From a virus (taxonomy: Duplodnaviria > Heunggongvirae > Uroviricota > Caudoviricetes), in the IMG/VR virus record IMGVR_UViG_2534681759_000007: DNA of 20,997 nucleotides; one strand, written 5' to 3'. Made by a program: the position numbers and the translations under genes. The stretch's first letter is position 1; the number at the start of each line of letters is the position of its first letter. Shown here piece by piece: positions 1-19,233 of the stretch. Below the pieces are notes generated by a model. That model was not told where the DNA came from and ran no database searches. It saw nothing but the letters and a program-made list of their open reading frames with translations.

Positions 1-1164
1 TTACGCCTTCTTTATATCCTCCATAATTCCAGAGTGGGACATATTTGGGACATTATCACCAAAAATGTCGTCTATTTTCCTCGCATGCTCTGTCAAATGA
101 TTAGGCGCAAGGTGAGCATACCTACGAACCATTTCTATGGACTCCCATCCGCCCATTTCCTGAAGCACTGATAATGGGACGCCTGACTGAATCAGCCAGC
201 TTGCCCAGGTGTGTCTGAGGTCATGGAAACGGAAATCTTCAATTCCTGCACGACGACAAGCTGATAGCCATGATGTCTTGCTGTCGATGCGCATCTTCCT
301 GACCGCAGGCGTTGATGTTCCATCTGCTCGCTTAGCCGCCTTGGTATGTACAAACACCCATTTGTGATGCTTGCCTATTTGATCACGCAACACTTTACAG
401 GCGGTATCGTTCAGCGCCACACCAATGGCGCGGTTTGATTTGCTCTCTTCTGGATTCACCCAGGCAACTCGTCGCTGCATGTCGATTTGTTGCCATTCCA
501 GATTTATGATGTTCGACTTTCTCAGACCAGTTGCCAGCGCAAACTTGACGACAGATTTCAGTGGTTCGGGGCACTCATCAATAAGGCGTTTTGCTTCCTC
601 CTTTTCCAGCCATCTGACTCGCTTGTTTCTGACCGCTGGTATCTTGATGACAGGCGCTTTTTCCAGCCACTTCCAGTCGCGTTCTGCAGCACGGAGAATG
701 GCCTTTATCATGGCAAGATGCTTTGCCTTTGTCTGAGTTGATACTGGCTTTGGTTCATAAACAGGCGGTTCTTTACCTTTCCTGATGGCGGCCTGAACTT
801 TCTGTTTCCATATTTCTTTCGTCTTTCTGTTATGCATTCTGCTTACAGCAGAGTAAATCTTTGCCTCCGAGATATCTTTAAGCCTTATACCCTCAAAATG
901 TTCAAGCCAGAACTCAATCCGGCTTTTATCTGAATCGAGAGATTTTTTATCAGCTTTTTCCTCAAGCCATCTTAGGCAGGCCTCTTCAAAAGTGACATCA
1001 GGTAAATCCCCTAGCTTTTCTACTCGCCAGAGTTCTGCTTTTCGCTTGTCGTGCAACTCCTGAGCTTGCCGCTTGTCCTTTGTGCCAAGAGATTCCTTAA
1101 TTCGTTTCCCGCCCGGGAGCGAATACGAGGCATACCATATTTCATTTCTGCGGAAGAGTGACAT
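1..1164 (-). CDS. int: Phage integrase, tyrosine recombinase family
   Basis: 387-aa ORF with ATG at 1164 and stop at 1-3. C-terminal region [15 protein letters not shown]...VRRYAHL fits the R..H-x-x-R..Y catalytic signature of tyrosine recombinases. First gene at the left edge, as expected at a prophage end. Confidence 0.9.
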
Positions 1165-3686: not shown

Positions 3687-4468
3687 GCTGCCACCTTCTG
3701 CTCAGTGGCTTTCTGTTTCAGGAATCCAAGAGCTTTCACTGCTTCGGCCTGTGTCAGTTCTGACGATGCGCGAATGTCGCGGCGAAATATCTGGGAACAG
3801 AGCGGCAATAAGTCGTCATCCCATGTTTTATCCAGGGCAATCAGCAGAGTGTTAATCTCCTGCATGGTTTCATCGTTAACCGGAGTGATGTCGCGTTCCG
3901 GCTGACGTTCTGCAGTGTATGCGGTATTTTCGACAATGCGCTCGGCTTCATCCTTGTCATAGATACCAGCAAATCCGAAGGCGAGACGGGCACACTGAAT
4001 CATGGCTTTATGCCGTAACATCCGTTTGGGATGCGACTGCCACGGCCCCGTGATTTCTCTGCCTTCGCGGGTTTTGAATGGTTCGCGGCGGCATTCATCC
4101 ATCCACTCGGTAACGCAGATCGGATGATTGCGGTCTTTGCGGTAAATCCGGCATGTGCAGGATTCGTTGTCCTGTTCAAAGTCCATGCCGTCAAACTGCT
4201 GGTTTTCGTTGATGATGCGGGACCAGCCATCAACGCCCACCACCGGAACGATGCCGTTCTGCTTATCGGGGAAGGCGTAAATTTCTTTCGTCCACGGATT
4301 AAGGCCGTACTGGTTGGCGACGATCAACAATGCGATGAACTGCGCATCGCTGGCATCACCTTTAAATGCCGTCTGGCGAAGAGTGGTGATCAGTTCCTGT
4401 GGGTCGACAGAATCCATGCCGACACGTTCAGCCAGCTTCCCAGCCAGCGTTGCGAGTGCAGTACTCAT
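3683..4468 (-). CDS. bet: Lambda Bet (Red beta single-strand annealing protein)
   Basis: 261-aa ORF recognised as near-identical to lambda Bet ([66 protein letters not shown]...). Confidence 0.95.
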
Positions 4469-4911: not shown

Positions 4912-4918
4912 TGTCAAT

Positions 4919-6865
<1,947 letters not shown>

Positions 6866-7095
6866 TAAGTGCGCTCAATGCCGCGATGCAGATAAAGTCG
6901 TCCGCGTAAATTAGCTGATGCAGTCCAGGTACCATCTTTGCGTTTGACCAGCATTCCTGGCATGACCGCACCGCGATTAACGGTCTGCGTTCCGTAATGT
7001 TGATGAACCATAAAAACTCCTGCCCGTAAGCTGGGCTGCTGAACATATAAAGACTTCTGCGCGTATTCAGGCGGTGGATGGCCGCCGGTTGTCAT
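6866..7095 (-). pseudogene. kil: 5' part of kil homologue interrupted by IS100 (true start uncertain, possibly an internal Met)
   Basis: The open frame from 7095 runs into the IS100 right end at 6865, where the translation switches to IS-derived sequence. Internal Met codons at about 6963 and 6954 would give a reconstituted product of about 50 aa, similar in size to lambda Kil. Confidence 0.55.
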
Positions 7096-7264
7096 AACTA
7101 AGCCGCCTCGTTGAAGCGACTAAGGTATGAAATGTTGAGTTGATTTCAGCTGGTCACACCGACGTTCACGCGTCCGTTTCATCCCTCGCACTCCCCGAAG
7201 CCTGCTGAAATTCAAGCTGCGGATCTAAGCGGTCATCGCAACGGTGAATCAGGTAGTTGCCGTA

Positions 7265-7360
7265 TCGTTGTGTTGTTGCGATGAACTTATTTAAAACTAT
7301 AGTTGTTTTATCGTCAACAACAAAAGTTGTTTTATTGGTTGTTTTAGATATAACTGGTTG
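7265..7360. promoter_or_regulatory. Putative OL/pL operator-promoter region (GTTGTT/AACAAC dyads)
   Basis: Clustered dyad-symmetric sites, e.g. AACAACAAAAGTTGTT (7316-7331) and TTGTTTTATCGTCAACAA (7303-7320), sharing half-sites with the cI-cro intergenic region. Position between the rex-slot gene and the leftward early operon matches lambda OL. Confidence 0.5.
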
Positions 7361-7488
7361 TATTTAGGATGGATTTATTTTGTGACTTGCATCGCACAGC
7401 GATAACTGAAGCGAGGTCGTGGTGGTTTTTTGAACGGTTTGTGTGATGAGGGGAGGCAAAAGAAAACCCGGCACGACGGCCGGGGAAA

Positions 7489-8352
7489 TCATTTCGCATC
7501 TACAATAAATAACCTGTTTATCTGGCCTTTTTTAACAGTAGCCTTTGCGGTTATAGTGAATACTGCAGATGGATCACCTTTGGTTGATATATATGCACTA
7601 AGAGCTCTAATATACGGGTTATTCTTCTTTCCTGCAGCTGGATCGCTAATTTCAGCAGTGATTCTCTTTTTTGAGTCATCACCATCTAAAATTATTTTAG
7701 CTGTCATATTTTGTGCATCAAATTCTGTAAGAAAAGCACGATACTCACGAAGACCGAGAACTTCATCATCATCAAGCCTATCAATTTCAGCTTTATCTCT
7801 CTCGTTAACTTTTAGAAGGCAGCCGTCAACATTTGTTGCAACACTTATCTGATCGCAAGTATTACCAATAGGTGATACTGCCTGCCTTACAGAGGGGCGA
7901 AGCTCTACAGCCATTCGGTCAATCAAAGAGATCAACTTATCAATGGTTCCAGCATCCTTGTTTCCTAGTGCCTCTATGGCCTTTTCAAGTGACTGCTGCA
8001 AAGCTTTCATTTCATCTTTCTTGTTAGAATTTCTCGCAAAAATATATTGTAGTATTGCGCCAAGTATAGTTGCGGCGATCCCCGAGAACAACTGGTTCTG
8101 AGTGGCGAAGTTAAGAACTGCTTCAAGAGTAAAGCAGTTAGCTTTTGCTTCGCGTGCGTAAACCTTAACTTCCTGATAATTAATGTATTTACTATATTTT
8201 TGTGTAACAGAGAAAGAAGCTGCTGTTGAGAGAACTTTAGAAAAACCCTTTAGGGATTCTCCTAGGCAGTTCAAATCTATTTCATGATTTAAAGCATCTT
8301 TTCCGTCATACCTAAGAGAGATTTTTATATCCTGTAAAGCGTCACAATCCAT
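7489..8352 (-). CDS. Hypothetical protein in the rexAB-equivalent slot downstream of cI; candidate superinfection-exclusion/abortive-infection protein
   Basis: 287-aa ORF, ATG at 8352, 66 nt after the cI stop and co-oriented with it; visibly AT-rich relative to flanking phage genes; one central hydrophobic segment ([18 protein letters not shown]); no family recognised. Confidence 0.6.
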
Positions 8353-8418
8353 AAATCGCTCTCGTCTAATTCTAATTAAATTTACTATCCCCTAAACGAC
8401 TCATCAGCACAGTACTGA

Positions 8419-9108
8419 TTATCCATGTTTCCTGTACGTCTGGGGCATGCTCCCAATAACCTTACCGAAGATGAACACCCGGTTCATCTCGTCTTTCTCG
8501 ATCGGGTCCCACGGTGAGTAGCTCTTGTTATCAGAGATAACCAGCAGCTTATCCTTCATCATTTGCAGGCGCTTTACATGGGCTGTGTCGTCGTACAGAA
8601 ACGCATAGATACCATCACCGTCGAAAGATTTAACCGTGATATCAACGAACAGCAGATCACCTGGTTCGATCGTTCCTGACATGCTGTCACCACGCACGTT
8701 AATGATGCGGATATTTTCCGCCTTCCTACCATCGAACATGTGACGAGCATCGTCAAACGAGTACTCAACCGAGCGTAGAACTTCTACAAACTCACGGTTG
8801 ATGACTCCCGGCCCAGCACTGACTTCTATATCAAGAACGTCAATCTTGAAGTATTTGGAATGGCTGACAGTTGATTGTATTGGTTGCACTGTACTGTCTG
8901 ACATATTTCCAACGCCAGAAGATAACCATTCTGCGCGCACACCCAAAGCGTTCGCGATCTCCACGATTTTAGTTGTTTGATTAGCTTTCCCTGTTTCGAT
9001 TTTCTGAATAGCAGCCTGGCTAACCCCGACCAAATCCCCAAGCGCCTTTTGTGTAAGGCCTCGCGCTAATCTGGCTTCTTTAAGTCTTTCTGAGAGTGTT
9101 GTTTTCAT
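8419..9108 (-). CDS. cI: CI-like prophage repressor (N-terminal HTH plus C-terminal S24 LexA-like peptidase domain)
   Basis: Start taken at MKTTLSERLKEARLARGLTQKALGDLVGVSQAAIQKIE (ATG 9108), an XRE-type HTH. C-terminal GDSMSGTIEPGD and HVKRL supply the Ser/Lys dyad of autocleaving repressors. Divergent from cro across an operator-containing spacer. Confidence 0.85.
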   Translation of the reverse strand: MKTTLSERLKEARLARGLTQKALGDLVGVSQAAIQKIETGKANQTTKIVEIANALGVRAEWLSSGVGNMSDSTVQPIQSTVSHSKYFKIDVLDIEVSAGPGVINREFVEVLRSVEYSFDDARHMFDGRKAENIRIINVRGDSMSGTIEPGDLLFVDITVKSFDGDGIYAFLYDDTAHVKRLQMMKDKLLVISDNKSYSPWDPIEKDEMNRVFIFGKVIGSMPQTYRKHG

Positions 9109-9114
9109 AGTCCA

Positions 9115-9180
9115 AATGTACAACCAAGGTTTTATTCCATCAAACGAAAATGGTTGTTGACTAAAAACAACCATAGTTTT
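9115..9180. promoter_or_regulatory. Putative OR operator / pRM-pR region
   Basis: Perfect inverted repeat TGGTTGTT-N7-AACAACCA at 9151-9173 plus additional GGTTGT half-sites in the 104-bp cI-cro spacer. Confidence 0.55.
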
Positions 9181-9212: not shown

Positions 9213-9443
9213 ATGAACCCAGCTATCAAAACAGCGATCAATATCGTTGGTTCACAAAAGAAACTGGGCGCTGCTTGCGAAGTTTCACAGCAGGCCGTCT
9301 ATAAGTGGCTTCACAACAAAGCAAAGGTATCCCCTGAACATGTCGGCAGCATTGTTACGGCTACTGGTGGAGTAGTGAAGGCATACCAGATTCGCCCGGA
9401 TCTTCCGAAGTTGTTTCCACACACCGAAAAGAACGCAGCTTAA
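9213..9443 (+). CDS. cro: Cro-like repressor (YdaS-type HTH)
   Basis: 76-aa ORF with GGAGG Shine-Dalgarno sequence, divergent from cI; motif KKLGAACEVSQQAVYKWL is a Cro/YdaS-type HTH. Confidence 0.8.
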   Translation: MNPAIKTAINIVGSQKKLGAACEVSQQAVYKWLHNKAKVSPEHVGSIVTATGGVVKAYQIRPDLPKLFPHTEKNAA

Positions 9444-12132: not shown

Positions 12133-13326
12133 TTATTCAATTAACGGTACTTGTTTGTTGCAGAATACTAATATTGCATCTTGAGTAAGTTTTTTATGCA
12201 TATGCTTTAGCGGCTCAATGTTAGTCTCGTAACCGAAAGTAGCGAAAAGAGTTGGTTCTATAATGAAATTTTCTTCATAAGCTTTTAGATCAAATGCTCT
12301 CTTTGCAATTAATCTAACTGCTTTCTTTCTAATGCGTGAATTATATCTATTCTCTATGCTAAGTTTAGCCATGTTTTCATCGATGTTGTTTTTTTGTTTT
12401 TTTAGTATAATTTGAATGTGATCATCATCAATTTGGCCATCTCTATATATATAATCAATGTCATAATTAAAATCAAAAAGCTGAGTGTCATTTACACCTT
12501 CAAGAAAAGGATTTGAAAATGGGCTCATGATCGGATCGAGTGATTTTTTATAAGTACTATTGCATTTAGTGCAGCTAGGAATTAAGTTAAATAAACTAAA
12601 GGAGATCAACGGATATTTGTACTTAGGTATGAAATGATCAAATGCTGGCCTGTAGCTAGTACCTGTATGGTCTTCTACTTGTTCAATTTCTTCACTGTTG
12701 CAATATGGGCATATGCTAATGTCTAAAAAACTGTTCAATTGATACGCTGTTTCTCTATCAATAAGTGAGTATTTAAATATTTCAGAAATATTTTTAACCC
12801 ATGATGGAAATAACTTAATGGTATTTTCCTTTAAAGGACCACCATTCTTGATACTTATAAGATTAAGAATCTTATCTCTTAAACTAGATAATTTTTGTGG
12901 TGAGAAATGTGTATTTAATATATCCTCAAGTATTAGGCTTTGTGTAGTTTGAGAGAAAGATGTGATTATTTTGATGGCATGTGCTAGTTCATTATAAACT
13001 ATTTTTTTGTTTTCTTTTGTTTTTAAAGGTAATTGTAGGTTTGTTAATGGTTGTAAATTTAAGTGCCTTAAAAAATAATCAGGAGAATAGTACTCACACA
13101 CAATTGGGTGTTTGTTGTATATTTTGATGATTATATTTTTTAATCGTTTGGGTTTTGAAAAAACTAATTTTCTGATAGTTTTTTTGTTGATTGTATTTAG
13201 AAACTCTACTTCATCGGGAGTAATGTTCAGTAACTTCCTCTGCTTCACGCGTTTATTAACTTTGCTTACTATTTTAGAAAAGGATATTTTTACATCAACA
13301 TTGAAGTCTTTGTTTATTTTTATCAT
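12133..13326 (-). CDS. HNH-family nuclease (PtuB-like), 397 aa, second gene of the AT-rich two-gene island
   Basis: HNH/His-Me finger signature at residues ~206-256 (nt ~12559-12711): CPYC...EDH...FDHFIPK...NLIPSCTKCN. Protein is Lys/Asn/Ile-rich and the DNA is strongly AT-rich; start is 9 nt downstream of the ATPase stop. Confidence 0.8.
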   Translation of the reverse strand: MIKINKDFNVDVKISFSKIVSKVNKRVKQRKLLNITPDEVEFLNTINKKTIRKLVFSKPKRLKNIIIKIYNKHPIVCEYYSPDYFLRHLNLQPLTNLQLPLKTKENKKIVYNELAHAIKIITSFSQTTQSLILEDILNTHFSPQKLSSLRDKILNLISIKNGGPLKENTIKLFPSWVKNISEIFKYSLIDRETAYQLNSFLDISICPYCNSEEIEQVEDHTGTSYRPAFDHFIPKYKYPLISFSLFNLIPSCTKCNSTYKKSLDPIMSPFSNPFLEGVNDTQLFDFNYDIDYIYRDGQIDDDHIQIILKKQKNNIDENMAKLSIENRYNSRIRKKAVRLIAKRAFDLKAYEENFIIEPTLFATFGYETNIEPLKHMHKKLTQDAILVFCNKQVPLIE

Positions 13327-13335
13327 TTTTTTTAC

Positions 13336-15123
13336 TCATTTCTCAAAAGAATCTGTTTTATCATTGTTTTTGTTTAACTTCAGATCAATAAGATTTATGA
13401 GAAGTTTATTTTTAATTTGTGATAGTATGGTTTTTTGATGTTTATTTAAATTACCGTCATCTGAGTTTTTTATTATTGAGTTTAGATAATTATGTGCGTG
13501 CTGTCCTATTGTAGCATCAATAAAAAAACCATTTATATATAATTCTGATATGGTTGCTCCGAAACCAAACTCTACTTTCTTAGTATAGGTTCCTTGATTA
13601 TGATCTCTTTCAAGATATATTATATCTGATGGCAAAAAATCACTTGCGAGTATAGGGGAGTGAGTTGTAAATACTAATTGAATATTTTTACTTTGTTTAT
13701 ATCTTAATGTTAAATCTATAATTTCTGAAAAAATAACTCGTTGCCATTCAGGGTGTAGATATAAATCACACTCATCTAATAATATTATAATATTTTTGCT
13801 GTTGCTATGTTCTATAGAATCATAAAGTTGATTGAAAAGGTTTAATTTTGCAAACTCTCCTGAACTAAGTGAATCCCAACCATACTTAAATCGCGATGAT
13901 ACGCCATTTGGTAACCTATCAACTAATCTTATTAACTCCATAATCTGCTTTGGTTCTTCAACTGTGAAAGATAAACTATCAACTGGGTCTCTTGCTGTGT
14001 TTTCTAATATATCAGCTATATTACCTATAATGTCGGAGATATGTTCAGATAACATTTCTATTTTTGACTGAAATTTAACATTAACGTTAAATTCATCTAA
14101 AGTCTCTAATATAGTTTTTGCTGGATCTTTTTCTTCAAGATACGCGCGACACAAGCAAAATAAATAAACAGTCTCACATATGTCTTTAGGGATTTTTGAT
14201 GTCTTGAGTAAATGCCATGTTATTGCAGGCAAAAGCATCAAGTAAATTATTTTGTGATATGAAAAGGTTGCGAGGAAATTTAATGATCTTTCTTTGTTAA
14301 AAATAATGCTAATAATAAAATCTTCATCGTAATCTATCCCATGATTGAGTATATCCACAAGTGAAATACCTAAAGAATCTAAATCACGTTCAATATATCT
14401 AGGGAGTTTATTGTTTTTAATTCTATCATTCAACGTATCAAAAAAGTATTCAATAGCTCCAAAAAGTCCTTTGTCACCAATATCATTGTTTTTTATAATA
14501 GAATTTATTTTATATACTGGTGAGTTTTCTATTTCAAATTGAAATTTAGTATTAAGTCTTGATAAATTGTCTTTAGCCCATGAACTGTGGTCTGAAAATG
14601 AAATTAATTGCTTGAGTAATTTCTTATTGCGTGTTTTACTGCCTTGCAAAAAATATGACAGTGATAAATCTTTAGAAATCGAATCGTTTTTTTTCTTTTT
14701 TTGTCCAACTAACATACTTTTGAGGTCGATTGTGTTATTTATCTTTATTAGATTGATTTTGTTTCTTCTAAAAAAATGTTCATTATTATCAATTAGTTCC
14801 GTTTGCATTTTGGATAATATTACAGGAGGTTTGCAATTGCTTGTGATAATTATAAGTTTATCATTTTCATTCCAGATGCTATAACCGCTACCTTCAAAAT
14901 CGTAAATAAAGCTACTAATGAAATCTAAAATTGATGACTTTCCAACACCATTTTTCCCTAAAATTAATGTACAGGGAATATTGCTATAATAGTCACGACT
15001 TAAATCTTTCTTAGCAATTGTAAGGACGTTACCTTTATGGCTAAAGGTAAATTTACTTGAGGTGGGGAGGGACAGCTTATTTAAACCTTTATAATTGTGG
15101 ATATAAGTGTATATTAGTTCCAT
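13336..15123 (-). CDS. ABC/SMC-like ATPase (AAA_15/AAA_21-type, PtuA-like), 595 aa, first gene of the two-gene island
   Basis: Walker A GKNGVGKSS (nt ~14935-14961), signature-like LSSGE (13855-13869), Walker B IIILLDECD (~13765-13791) and H-loop FTTHSP (~13654-13671), with a ~350-aa helical insert between Walker A and the signature. Strongly AT-rich. Confidence 0.8.
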   Translation of the reverse strand: MELIYTYIHNYKGLNKLSLPTSSKFTFSHKGNVLTIAKKDLSRDYYSNIPCTLILGKNGVGKSSILDFISSFIYDFEGSGYSIWNENDKLIIITSNCKPPVILSKMQTELIDNNEHFFRRNKINLIKINNTIDLKSMLVGQKKKKNDSISKDLSLSYFLQGSKTRNKKLLKQLISFSDHSSWAKDNLSRLNTKFQFEIENSPVYKINSIIKNNDIGDKGLFGAIEYFFDTLNDRIKNNKLPRYIERDLDSLGISLVDILNHGIDYDEDFIISIIFNKERSLNFLATFSYHKIIYLMLLPAITWHLLKTSKIPKDICETVYLFCLCRAYLEEKDPAKTILETLDEFNVNVKFQSKIEMLSEHISDIIGNIADILENTARDPVDSLSFTVEEPKQIMELIRLVDRLPNGVSSRFKYGWDSLSSGEFAKLNLFNQLYDSIEHSNSKNIIILLDECDLYLHPEWQRVIFSEIIDLTLRYKQSKNIQLVFTTHSPILASDFLPSDIIYLERDHNQGTYTKKVEFGFGATISELYINGFFIDATIGQHAHNYLNSIIKNSDDGNLNKHQKTILSQIKNKLLINLIDLKLNKNNDKTDSFEK

Positions 15124-17708: not shown

Positions 17709-18806
17709 TTAGAACTGGTAAACCAGACCTACAGCAACGATGTCATCAGTGCTTACACCGAGTGCTTTAGTGAAGTCATTTTTGTCAAGCAGGTTGATTT
17801 TGTAATCAACGAAAGTTGACATATTTTTGTTGAAGTAATAGGTGGCACCTACATCAACATATTTGACTAAGTCCTGATCGCCCCATACTCCAAGATCCTT
17901 ACCTTTAGATTGCAGGTAAGCAACGGACGGACGCAGACCGAAATCGAACTGATATTGTGCAACAGCTTCGAAGTTTTGAGCTTTATTAGCAACGAAGTGA
18001 TCAGCAAATACAGTCATATTCTGGGTTTCAGAATAGGTAGTGGCCAGGTAAATGTTGTTAGCGTCATATTTCAGACCTGCGGCCCAAACTTCTGCATTTT
18101 TACCGGAAGCAAATACTTCAGGAAGAACTTTCCCTGCATTAACTTGAGTGTCGGTACGATCAGATTTCGCATAAGTTGCACCGATACCGAATCCTTCGTA
18201 TTCATAGGTAGCAGAGAAACCGAAGCCATCACCGTTACCTTCGGTGTAGTTATCGAAATCGCTACGATCGTTTTTGCCTTGGTACTGAGCAGCAAAGTTC
18301 AGACCATCAACCAGGCCAAAGAAGTCGTTGTTACGATAGGTTGCAACACCAGTGGTGCGACCAGTCATGAACACATCTGTTTGGGTCCAGGTATCGCCAC
18401 CGAATTCTGGCAGAACGTCAGTCCACGCACCGATGTCGTATGCTACACCGTAGTTACGGCCGTAATCGATGGAGCCGTAGTCACCGAATTTCAGGCCAGC
18501 GAAGGCAAGACGGGTTTTATCTTTGGAGGAACCTTGAGATTCAGCGCGGTTGCCTTTGAATTCATATTCCCACTGACCGAAACCAGTCAGTTGATCGTTG
18601 ATTTGGGTTTCACCTTTGAAGCCAAGACGGGCATAAGTAGTATCACCATCATCTGCATCATTAGAGGAGAAGTAGTGCTTAGCATTAACTTTCCCGTACA
18701 GATCCAGCTTGTTACTGTCTTTATTATAAATTTCAGCTGCCTGAGCAGACATCGCCATCAGTACTGATGCAGCTACAGCAGAAATTGCCACTGTTAATTT
18801 TTTCAT
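17709..18806 (-). CDS. nmpC: Outer-membrane general porin NmpC/OmpD-like, apparently intact
   Basis: Start at [23 protein letters not shown] (signal peptide) followed by [17 protein letters not shown]... and C-terminal ...VGLVYQF, i.e. hallmark porin N- and C-termini. Encoded antisense between Q and the lysis cassette. Confidence 0.9.
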
Positions 18807-19233
18807 CGTGAGCCCTTTTTTTGAACTATTATTAAAAAATGATGTCACTGCGCGATAAATATTCATCTAATCAATATGATTATTTCAAGATGTAAGTTTT
18901 GGTTTCTCGTTTGATTTGTGAAGTAGATCTCTATTTTTATCTGAACTTTTTTCTATCGAATCCTATTCATGGCTCTTGGCTGAATAAAAATAAATCTATT
19001 AGCCAATTTATATTAACGGTTGTTATTTATAAGTGCTCTATGATTTGAAGGTTCAATTTAAATCGGCTAAAAATAACACTGGAAATTATTTGTTGGTTAT
19101 TTGTTGAGATTTGCTTATGTATTTGTAGTGGTGTTTTCAATACTCGGTAGCATTCTCGCAAATATCATTTAGTGGTTTACGTACGTAAAAAATTGGTTAT
19201 GCTGTTAAGAGTGGTTACTTCGTCACACAGCTT

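What the first reader, a model, noticed from the sequence alone, without database searches (positions are those of the whole stretch)
7489..8352. Orphan AT-rich gene in the rexAB-equivalent slot directly downstream of cI
In lambda the slot immediately downstream of cI, between cI and OL/pL, holds rexA/rexB, the prototype prophage exclusion system expressed in the lysogen. Here that slot holds a single 287-aa ORF of lower GC than its neighbours, co-oriented with cI and 66 nt downstream, with one central hydrophobic segment and no family I recognise. Position plus composition make it a candidate single-gene superinfection-exclusion or abortive-infection determinant.
Basis: inference. Interest (0 to 1): 0.65.

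Follow-up and report, generated by a model that had tools for sequence, protein, structure and literature searches.

The report
Repressor-linked prophage gene, probable phage defence
A real, well-conserved but uncharacterised gene (the phage phi80 "40A" family, Pfam DUF7946+DUF7947) sits inside the repressor operon of an E. coli lambda-like prophage, in the slot where lambda keeps rexAB, and comparative evidence makes it a good but untested candidate for a one-protein anti-phage defence.

Summary
A 287-aa ORF (7489-8352, minus strand) lies 66 nt after the cI repressor, before a terminator and the OL operator. It has low GC (38%; GC3 30%) and one central hydrophobic helix. It is not an orphan: it matches Pfam DUF7946+DUF7947 and PHROG 5147, and is 62% identical to phage phi80 protein 40A, which occupies the same cI-OL slot. 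The family has about 500 clusters at 50% identity, all with the same ~280-aa architecture. No function is published. In 15 of 22 distinct genomic contexts (Enterobacterales, Pasteurellaceae, Neisseriales) the gene is co-oriented downstream of an otherwise different prophage repressor. Fossil 3' ends of foreign cI genes sit just upstream of it, so it has travelled with cI tails. Sibling phages with the same immunity carry nothing, a toxin-antitoxin pair or a lipoprotein in the same slot. The N-terminal domain is homologous to the untested PADLOC candidate PDC-S42. Predicted structure: N-domain, hydrophobic helix in a helical bundle, C-terminal OB fold, no enzymatic domain, no relation to RexA/RexB or BstA. 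Best reading: a lysogen-expressed single-protein exclusion or abortive-infection factor acting at the inner membrane. An anti-phage role has probability about 0.65; the specific mechanism about 0.35. This would be a new protein family in a known kind of locus.

The parts
7489..8352 (-). 287-aa ORF, DUF7946 + DUF7947 protein (phi80 gp40A family, PHROG 5147)
8092..8328 (-). N-terminal conserved region, aa 9-87. It carries the motif RYDGxDAxxHxxxLxxLGESLxGF...ANCF and is the part homologous to PADLOC PDC-S42, phrog_3243 and the NCBIfam LAPAL family. The model is low-confidence for aa 56-88.
8029..8091 (-). [not shown]
7879..8019 (-). Amphipathic helices, aa 112-158 (helical bundle with invariant E114-M115-K116 and L151-x-P153)
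7492..7764 (-). C-terminal beta-barrel, aa 197-287 (DUF7947), OB-fold-like, pLDDT about 90
8385..8411 (-). Degenerate fossil of a foreign cI 3' end inside the 66-nt spacer. It reads CADESFRG*, compared with QWPDDTF* at the end of the real Morganella cI.
8419..9108 (-). cI-type repressor (HTH_3 + Peptidase_S24), 229 aa from MKTTL. The mechanical ORF extends to 9174 but would then overlap the OR operator.
7457..7484 (-). Intrinsic terminator (CCCGGCCGTCGTGCCGGG + TTTTCTTTTG) shared by all cargo variants of this slot. It is the right boundary of the cargo cassette.
7293..7309 (.). OL-type operator copy (AAAACTATAGTTGTTTT)
9164..9180 (.). OR-type operator copy (AAAACTATGGTTGTTTT) between cI and cro
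9213..9443 (+). cro-like regulator (YdaS/P22_Cro), divergent from cI

Best explanation
The ORF is a horizontally acquired cargo ('moron') gene placed inside the cI transcription unit of a lambdoid prophage, so it is made in the lysogen together with the repressor. Its most likely job is to protect the lysogen against other phages as a single-protein system. Proposed mechanism, all inferred: the protein rests in the cytoplasm or at the inner face of the membrane, with its hydrophobic Gly/Ala-rich helix (aa 88-108) packed against two amphipathic helices. The conserved N-terminal domain and/or the C-terminal OB-fold recognises a phage-derived ligand, either nucleic acid or a protein. This releases the hydrophobic helix to oligomerise in the inner membrane and collapse membrane function, giving abortive infection. 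Functionally this would be a one-polypeptide analogue of the RexA sensor plus RexB membrane effector. What is shown: gene reality, family membership, operon placement, the swappable slot, conserved linkage to repressors, and the domain layout. What is inferred: expression from PRM, anti-phage activity, ligand sensing, and membrane action.
Confidence: 0.35

Rival explanations
1. It is a superinfection-exclusion protein anchored in the inner membrane. The helix aa 88-108 would be a constitutive single-pass anchor, with N-out/C-in topology as the positive-inside rule suggests. The ~87-aa N-domain would face the periplasm, and the helical bundle plus OB fold would sit at the cytoplasmic face. The protein would then block or trap incoming phage DNA or the tape-measure complex during injection. 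This resembles P22 SieA, HK97 gp15 or the recently described SNIPE, but without a nuclease.
For: The hydrophobic segment is conserved and has a basic cluster (RNSNKK) on its C-side only. The OB fold could bind DNA. The alternative cargo in the same slot of PhiR26_1 is a putative lipoprotein, a typical exclusion-type product. SNIPE shows that a single-TM protein with a cytoplasmic DNA-binding domain can act at injection.
Against: There is no signal peptide. Exporting an 87-residue N-tail carrying 10 Lys/Arg is unusual. The helix has marginal insertion energy and is inferred to pack into a soluble-looking three-helix bundle. Known Sie proteins have N-terminal or multiple transmembrane segments (established knowledge, not tested here).
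Confidence: 0.2
2. It is an anti-phage protein that works without the membrane. The OB fold and N-domain would bind phage replication or recombination intermediates, or a phage protein, in the cytoplasm and stall development. The hydrophobic helix would serve only as an oligomerisation core. BstA is the analogy, since it localises to phage replication sites.
For: The C-terminal OB fold has invariant Lys/Arg/Tyr residues K219, R230, Y247 and K270. The helix is inferred to lie inside a helical bundle. BstA shares the synteny and is a non-membrane abortive-infection protein.
Against: A uniformly hydrophobic 19-residue helix with hydrophobic moment 0.05 is unusual for a small soluble bundle. No DNA-binding motif or similarity to KilA-N or RexA was found.
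Confidence: 0.15
3. It is an accessory factor of the prophage's own lysis-lysogeny switch or induction. From established knowledge, not tested here, RexA has been reported to modulate the lambda switch. In this reading it is not a defence.
For: Physical linkage to cI genes is tight and ancient, including the fossil cI tails. Placement is conserved in unrelated immunity regions.
Against: Sibling phages with identical cI/cro/operators lack the gene and were isolated as viable temperate phages. The same 100%-identical gene serves two different immunity specificities. Homologues also occur away from any repressor: in an AlpA island next to Abi_2, after lysis genes, and beside IS elements.
Confidence: 0.1
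4. It is a lysogenic-conversion gene that benefits the host for reasons unrelated to phages, such as envelope stress or colonisation, or else near-neutral selfish cargo.
For: Lysogen-expressed slots also hold non-defence morons. bstA itself was first linked to virulence phenotypes. No effector domain is recognisable.
Against: Purifying selection is strong, dN/dS 0.06. The N-domain is homologous to a family found embedded in BREX/DISARM/RM loci. Neighbours are repeatedly defence or toxin-antitoxin genes.
Confidence: 0.15

Closest known systems
Phage phi80 protein 40A (PHI80_46, AFV29182; Pfam DUF7946/DUF7947; PHROG 5147)
   Same: Full-length homologue with 62% identity and the same two-domain architecture and length. 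It occupies the same slot between cI and OL/pL and is co-oriented with cI.
   Different: It belongs to a different phage with a different cI and operators. In phi80 the spacer is 136 nt and holds two fossil cI ends and a tiny hydrophobic ORF. The GenBank note 'acetate kinase superfamily domain' is not reproduced by Pfam. No function is published in the literature I could search.
Lambda RexA/RexB abortive-infection system
   Same: Same slot (between cI and OL), same orientation, terminator after the cargo, and presumably PRM-driven expression in the lysogen. The proposed logic of an intracellular sensor plus a membrane-active part is analogous.
   Different: There is no sequence or profile similarity to RexA or RexB (hhalign probability 0.2% for each). 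This is one gene rather than two, with one marginal hydrophobic helix rather than the multi-pass membrane protein RexB (RexB topology from established knowledge), and an OB-fold C-terminal domain.
BstA (Salmonella prophage BTP1 and relatives)
   Same: It is a single-gene family that is strikingly conserved directly downstream of diverse prophage repressors and has its own terminator. It is a proven abortive-infection protein.
   Different: BstA is an unrelated protein; no KilA-N or other BstA-type Pfam domain was detected here. BstA is not membrane-associated. BstA has a DNA self-immunity element (aba) at its 5' end. The conserved element upstream of the present gene turned out to be a fossil cI coding end, not a demonstrable aba analogue.
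PADLOC phage-defence candidate PDC-S42
   Same: The N-terminal ~115 residues are homologous: 36 of 47 family members hit it, best E 3e-8, and the overall length is similar (~300 aa).
   Different: The match covers only the first third. PDC-S42 was nominated because it is embedded in BREX/DISARM/type I RM loci, and it is untested.
933W Stk kinase and other cI-adjacent exclusion genes (from established knowledge, not tested here)
   Same: A gene next to cI, expressed in the lysogen, that excludes a heterologous phage.
   Different: Stk is a protein kinase. No kinase domain is present here.

Membership tests
Pfam DUF7946/DUF7947 family (phi80 gp40A; PHROG 5147) | Matches to both Pfam models above their gathering scores, in N-to-C order | tested here: met
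   DUF7946 scores 187.2 bits (cut-off 27) over aa 11-191. DUF7947 scores 67.1 bits (cut-off 27) over aa 201-287. phrog_5147 matches full length, E 1.5e-178.
Pfam DUF7946/DUF7947 family (phi80 gp40A; PHROG 5147) | Collinear full-length alignment with the founding member phi80 40A | tested here: met
   62% identity over residues 1-285. The alignment A1 shows 36 invariant columns across 28 sequences.
Lambda Rex (RexA + RexB) | Homology to RexA or RexB | tested here: not met
   hhalign of the family profile against lambda RexA and RexB gives probability 0.2% for each.
Lambda Rex (RexA + RexB) | Two-gene architecture: a cytoplasmic sensor plus a polytopic membrane protein | tested here: not met
   The slot 7485-8418 holds a single ORF, and no partner gene is conserved across the loci examined.
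Lambda Rex (RexA + RexB) | Location between cI and OL, co-oriented with cI, followed by a terminator | tested here: met
Lambda Rex (RexA + RexB) | Exclusion of T4 rII-type phages with membrane depolarisation | not testable with these tools
   This needs infection experiments.
BstA | BstA-type domain content (KilA-N-like N-terminal domain) | tested here: not met
   There are no KilA-N or related Pfam/PADLOC hits. The only hits are DUF7946, DUF7947 and a weak PDC-S42 match.
BstA | Conserved placement downstream of the prophage repressor | tested here: met
   15 of 22 contexts.
PADLOC PDC-S42 | Full-length match to the PDC-S42 HMM | tested here: inconclusive
   Only profile positions 4-113 of 302 match. 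E is 1.5e-4 for the window protein, and 36 of 47 relatives hit it with best E 3e-8.
Membrane superinfection-exclusion proteins (SieA, HK97 gp15, T4 Imm type) | N-terminal signal/anchor or multiple clear transmembrane segments | tested here: not met
   There is one central, marginal hydrophobic segment (aa 88-106) and no N-terminal hydrophobic region.
OB-fold proteins | Five-stranded beta-barrel that superposes on OB folds | tested here: inconclusive
   [not shown]

The most novel reading that the evidence does not exclude
DUF7946/DUF7947 proteins, including gene 40A of the classical phage phi80, are a widespread and so far unrecognised single-polypeptide abortive-infection family. They would be hard-wired to prophage repressor operons, with an OB-fold/N-domain sensor releasing a latent membrane-inserting helix. 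That would make them a mechanistically new, self-contained functional analogue of the two-protein Rex system.
Probability: 0.25. Interest if true: 0.7.

Novelty: new variant of a known kind. Interest (0 to 1): 0.5.

Why it matters
Repressor-linked cargo genes such as rexAB, bstA and stk are how prophages pay rent to their hosts, and each one characterised so far has revealed a different mechanism. This family is catalogued only as two DUFs, yet it is present in about 1.4% of complete E. coli genomes and in prophages of at least two proteobacterial classes. It is also present in phi80, a standard laboratory phage, so a knock-out and plaquing test is immediately feasible. If active, it would add a compact single-gene defence with no recognisable enzymatic effector. 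It would also give a clean example of a defence gene that spreads by recombination through cI gene tails.

Tried and rejected
- **Rex relationship:** profile comparison with lambda RexA and RexB showed no relationship.
- **Upstream motif:** the conserved motif CTGATGAGNCGTTT looked like a possible RNA element or hammerhead-like core. Rfam found nothing, and translation showed it is the fossil C-terminus (WPDETF*) of a cI gene, so the RNA idea was dropped.
- **phi80 annotation:** the 'acetate kinase superfamily' note is not reproduced by Pfam.
- **NCBIfam hit:** 'LAPAL motif putative phage structural protein' scores 26 bits against a cut-off of 60, over the N-terminal part only. It was rejected as membership.
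- **Literature:** searches for DUF7946, phi80 40A, PDC-S42, WP_000340376 and phi80 prophage defence found no characterisation. The phi80 genome paper (PMC3510586) is not held. The GevT/GevA and PhiR-phage searches were uninformative.
- **Genome scan:** the genome-contig scan returned only 8 loci, so the context tally rests on 22 contexts, not a census.
- **Antisense ORF:** the 140-aa ORF on the plus strand (7430..7852) is treated as a shadow of the conserved minus-strand gene.

Full report
**1. What is there**

The window is part of an E. coli lambdoid prophage. Its gene order is:
- integrase (1-1164, minus strand)
- Dam methylase
- exo, bet and gam
- an IS21-family insertion
- the OL region
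- the ORF in question
- cI
- cro, cII-like, O and P on the plus strand
- further cargo

The ORF 7489..8352 (minus) encodes 287 aa and starts 66 nt after the stop codon of a repressor with HTH_3 + Peptidase_S24 domains. A 17-bp operator-like sequence, AAAACTATRGTTGTTTT, occurs exactly twice in the window. One copy lies between cI and cro (9164-9180) and the other at 7293-7309. Only 1 of 100 shuffles gave two matches. The ORF therefore lies between cI and OL.

Directly after the ORF stop codon comes a GC-rich hairpin with a T-run (7484-7467). The scan reports no terminator-like site and no consensus promoter in the 66-nt spacer.

GC content is 0.384 for the ORF (GC3 0.295). It is 0.47-0.53 for cI, cro, cII, O and P. 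The single hydrophobic segment is aa 88-106.

**2. It is not an orphan**

The protein matches three catalogued families:
- Pfam DUF7946, aa 11-191, E 3.8e-55
- Pfam DUF7947, aa 201-287, E 1.4e-18
- PHROG 5147, full length, E 1.5e-178, function unknown

A tblastn search of phage genomes finds phi80 protein 40A at 62% identity over the whole length, and a Helicobacter prophage protein at 50%.

The large protein collection gives 65 close cluster representatives in Klebsiella, Enterobacter, Serratia, Raoultella, Citrobacter, Proteus, Providencia, Morganella, Neisseria and Vitreoscilla. An exhaustive profile search of 1.84 billion representatives gives 497 clusters at 50% identity with E ≤ 1e-3. 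Nearly all full-length members among the 150 best listed are 265-320 aa with the same two-domain layout (shorter entries look like fragments), and none shows a fusion to another domain.

In complete E. coli genomes the gene is present in 77 of 5,426, always as a single chromosomal copy at ≥99% identity. Two copies are interrupted by IS1. The dN/dS ratio against the 90%-identical Klebsiella gene is 0.06. It is a real gene under purifying selection.

**3. The slot is a swappable cargo position inside the cI transcription unit**

Phages with the same cI, cro and operators share 96-99% identical DNA on both sides but differ in between. These phages are Turner, PhiR34_1, PhiR47_2, IdasGreatGrand and PhiR26_1.
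- Homology to PhiR34_1 and PhiR47_2 breaks at window position 8420, the cI stop codon.
- On the other side it breaks at 7475/7484, the terminator hairpin.

The slot contents differ between siblings:
- PhiR34_1 has 131 bp of non-coding DNA.
- PhiR47_2 has genes annotated as GevT toxin and GevA antitoxin.
- PhiR26_1 has a putative lipoprotein gene.

All variants end at the same hairpin, CCCGGCC..CGTGCCGGGTTTTCTTTTG (alignment A4). The cassette is therefore 7485-8418. It is bracketed by the repressor's stop codon and the backbone terminator, which is the geometry of rexAB in lambda.

In other E. coli genomes the identical ORF, with the identical 66-nt spacer, follows a second repressor allele. 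That allele has a different HTH domain and an identical C-terminal domain (82% identity overall). Recombination within the conserved cI 3' half evidently moves the cargo between immunity types.

**4. The linkage to repressors is conserved and ancient**

I examined 22 distinct contexts. In 15 the gene is co-oriented downstream of a prophage repressor, either directly or after one to three small ORFs:

| Context |
|---|
| Two E. coli immunity types |
| phi80 |
| Two Morganella prophages with different cI and replication modules |
| Vitreoscilla |
| Neisseria |
| Klebsiella, after a Rac-type 131-aa CI |
| Erwinia, Enterobacter and three Mannheimia loci, with repressor identity checked by Pfam |
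| Two further metagenomic or uncultured prophages |

The other seven contexts are not repressor-linked in that way:

| Context |
|---|
| Serratia AlpA island next to an Abi_2 gene |
| IS/integrase island |
| Rahnella, after two DinI genes |
| A Burkholderiaceae MAG |
| Chromobacterium prophage, near the immunity region but in opposite orientation |
| Chromobacterium prophage end, after the lysis genes |
| Helicobacter prophage |

The strongest single piece of evidence is a set of fossils. The real Morganella cI ends in ...KSQWPDDTF*. The following remnants lie directly upstream of the DUF7946 ORF, after unrelated repressors:
- Morganella L007: QWPDDTF*
- phi80: WPEETFG* and WPDETFW*
- Erwinia: AQWPEEKFG*
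- E. coli: the degenerate CADESFRG*

The Klebsiella copy, which follows a Rac-type CI, carries a fossil of the E. coli-type cI end, MPQTYRKHG*. The gene has therefore repeatedly moved together with the tail of a cI gene. Being read through from cI looks like part of its long-term biology.

**5. Links to defence**

Four lines connect the gene to phage defence:
- **Hotspot.** The cI-N region is a known mosaic hotspot that holds rexAB and bstA. BstA shows the same conserved synteny with repressors.
- **Neighbours.**
  - SIR2_2 in Vitreoscilla
  - HigBA in Neisseria, and a HigBA-like pair in Mannheimia L026 judged from ORF translations only
  - Abi_2 in Serratia
  - a Tlde1-domain protein in Erwinia
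- **PADLOC.** The window protein hits PDC-S42 weakly (E 1.5e-4, aa 9-127). Across the family, 36 of 47 members hit it, best E 3e-8. PDC systems are 145 untested candidates nominated because they are embedded in BREX, DISARM or type I RM loci.
- **Second cargo cassette.** The same prophage carries another low-GC, defence-like cassette matching PDC-M62A/B, which is Septu-like.

This is all guilt by association. No member of the family has a published phenotype in the searchable literature.

**6. Anatomy of the protein**

Two AlphaFold2 models, built from 26- and 47-sequence alignments, have mean pLDDT 74.5 and 77.2 and agree with each other. The layout is:
- a beta strand at aa 11-16 carrying the invariant motif R-Y-D-G-x-D-A-x-x-H
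- a long helix at aa 27-50
- a poorly modelled stretch at aa 56-88 that includes the invariant A-N-C-F
- a helix at aa 91-108, which is the hydrophobic segment
- helices at aa 112-128, 134-150 and 152-158
- a beta hairpin
- a confident C-terminal beta-barrel at aa 197-286, pLDDT about 90

There is no sequence relative in the PDB and no profile similarity to RexA or RexB.

The hydrophobic helix has these properties:
- Kyte-Doolittle 19-residue mean of 1.85
- Eisenberg <H> of 0.49 with hydrophobic moment 0.05
- summed Hessa energy of +1 to +3.5 kcal/mol across family members

**7. Interpretation**

What is shown:
- The gene is a conserved single-gene cargo placed within repressor operons.
- It is dispensable for the phage.
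- It is under selection.
- It has no recognisable enzyme domain.

What I infer:
- It is produced in the lysogen.
- It acts against superinfecting phages (my estimate about 0.65).

For mechanism I commit to a latent membrane effector model, with confidence about 0.35. In this model the N-domain or OB fold senses a phage ligand. Sensing releases the hydrophobic helix, which oligomerises in the inner membrane and aborts the infection. This would work like RexA+RexB in one chain, without being a member of that family.

The rivals are:

| Rival | Confidence |
|---|---|
| A constitutive N-out/C-in membrane anchor acting at DNA injection, compare SNIPE | 0.2 |
| A cytoplasmic binder of phage replication intermediates, compare BstA | 0.15 |
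| A switch accessory factor | 0.1 |
| A non-phage conversion gene or neutral cargo | 0.15 |

**8. Novelty and score**

The kind of locus is well known: a repressor-linked, lysogen-expressed cargo gene. The protein family is catalogued but uncharacterised, and it is unrelated to Rex, BstA or any PADLOC system with a demonstrated function. I therefore call it a new variant of a known kind.

A specialist would not be astonished that a cI-adjacent moron is a defence candidate. The notable points are the conserved repressor linkage with fossil cI tails, the absence of an enzymatic effector, and the presence of a homologue in phi80. Together they make it a clean, cheap experimental target. Interest is 0.5.

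Noticed in passing
window 12133-15123 (minus strand): A two-gene, very low-GC (0.29) cassette lies downstream of replication gene P. It encodes a 595-aa AAA_15/AAA_21 ATPase and a 397-aa partner. These match PADLOC PDC-M62A (4e-44) and PDC-M62B (1.5e-33), with weaker PtuA/PtuB (Septu-like) hits. It is a second candidate defence cargo in the same prophage.
   Followed up: partly
window 4912-6864: An IS21-family element (istA 5757-6779, istB 4978-5760) is inserted with a 6-bp overlap of the flanks, consistent with a target duplication. The insertion is in the first gene of the pL operon, the kil-like 'cell division inhibitor' gene. The ORF 6793-7095 is the resulting truncated or hybrid gene. The leftward early operon (gam, bet, exo, int) is probably polar-blocked, so the prophage may be defective.
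   Followed up: partly
window 8385-8411; L001 3865-4000; L007 4943-5000; L020 4934-5000; L011 4554-5000: Fossil 3' ends of foreign cI genes (QWPDDTF*-like, or MPQTYRKHG* in Klebsiella) lie immediately upstream of DUF7946 genes in several genera. They are footprints of recombination that moved the gene together with cI tails.
   Followed up: yes
L001 (phi80) about 3893-3964: A tiny ORF encoding a 23-aa hydrophobic peptide (MREYLIVGVVTLLSVVAIVLMVA) lies between phi80 cI and gene 40A and overlaps a cI-tail fossil. It could be chance or a small membrane peptide.
   Followed up: no
window 9108-9174: The mechanical cI ORF starts at 9174, but that ATG lies inside the OR operator copy (9164-9180). The MKTTL start at 9108 (229 aa) matches the annotation of one sibling phage and is more plausible. 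Public records disagree, giving 690 or 756 bp.
   Followed up: partly
window 17709-18866 (minus strand): A prophage-borne Porin_1 gene (385 aa, E 1e-156), of the Lc/NmpC type of lysogenic-conversion porin.
   Followed up: no
L009 6661-8274; L016 4019-4564; L026 6002-6593; L020 4188-4933: Other cargo in the same repressor-downstream region of other prophages: a SIR2_2 protein (Vitreoscilla), HigB/HigA (Neisseria), a HigBA-like pair judged from ORF translations only (Mannheimia L026), and a Tlde1-domain protein plus a 71-aa membrane protein (Erwinia). The slot accumulates defence and toxin cargo across genera.
   Followed up: partly
E. coli genomes NZ_CP128594.1 and NZ_CP080146.1: In two of the 77 E. 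coli genomes carrying the gene, it is split by an IS1 insertion. This is occasional inactivation in nature.
   Followed up: no
window about 7046-7293: No N-like antiterminator gene is evident between OL and the first pL gene, in this prophage or its siblings. The first pL gene is annotated as Kil or hypothetical. These phages may not use a lambda-type N system.
   Followed up: no
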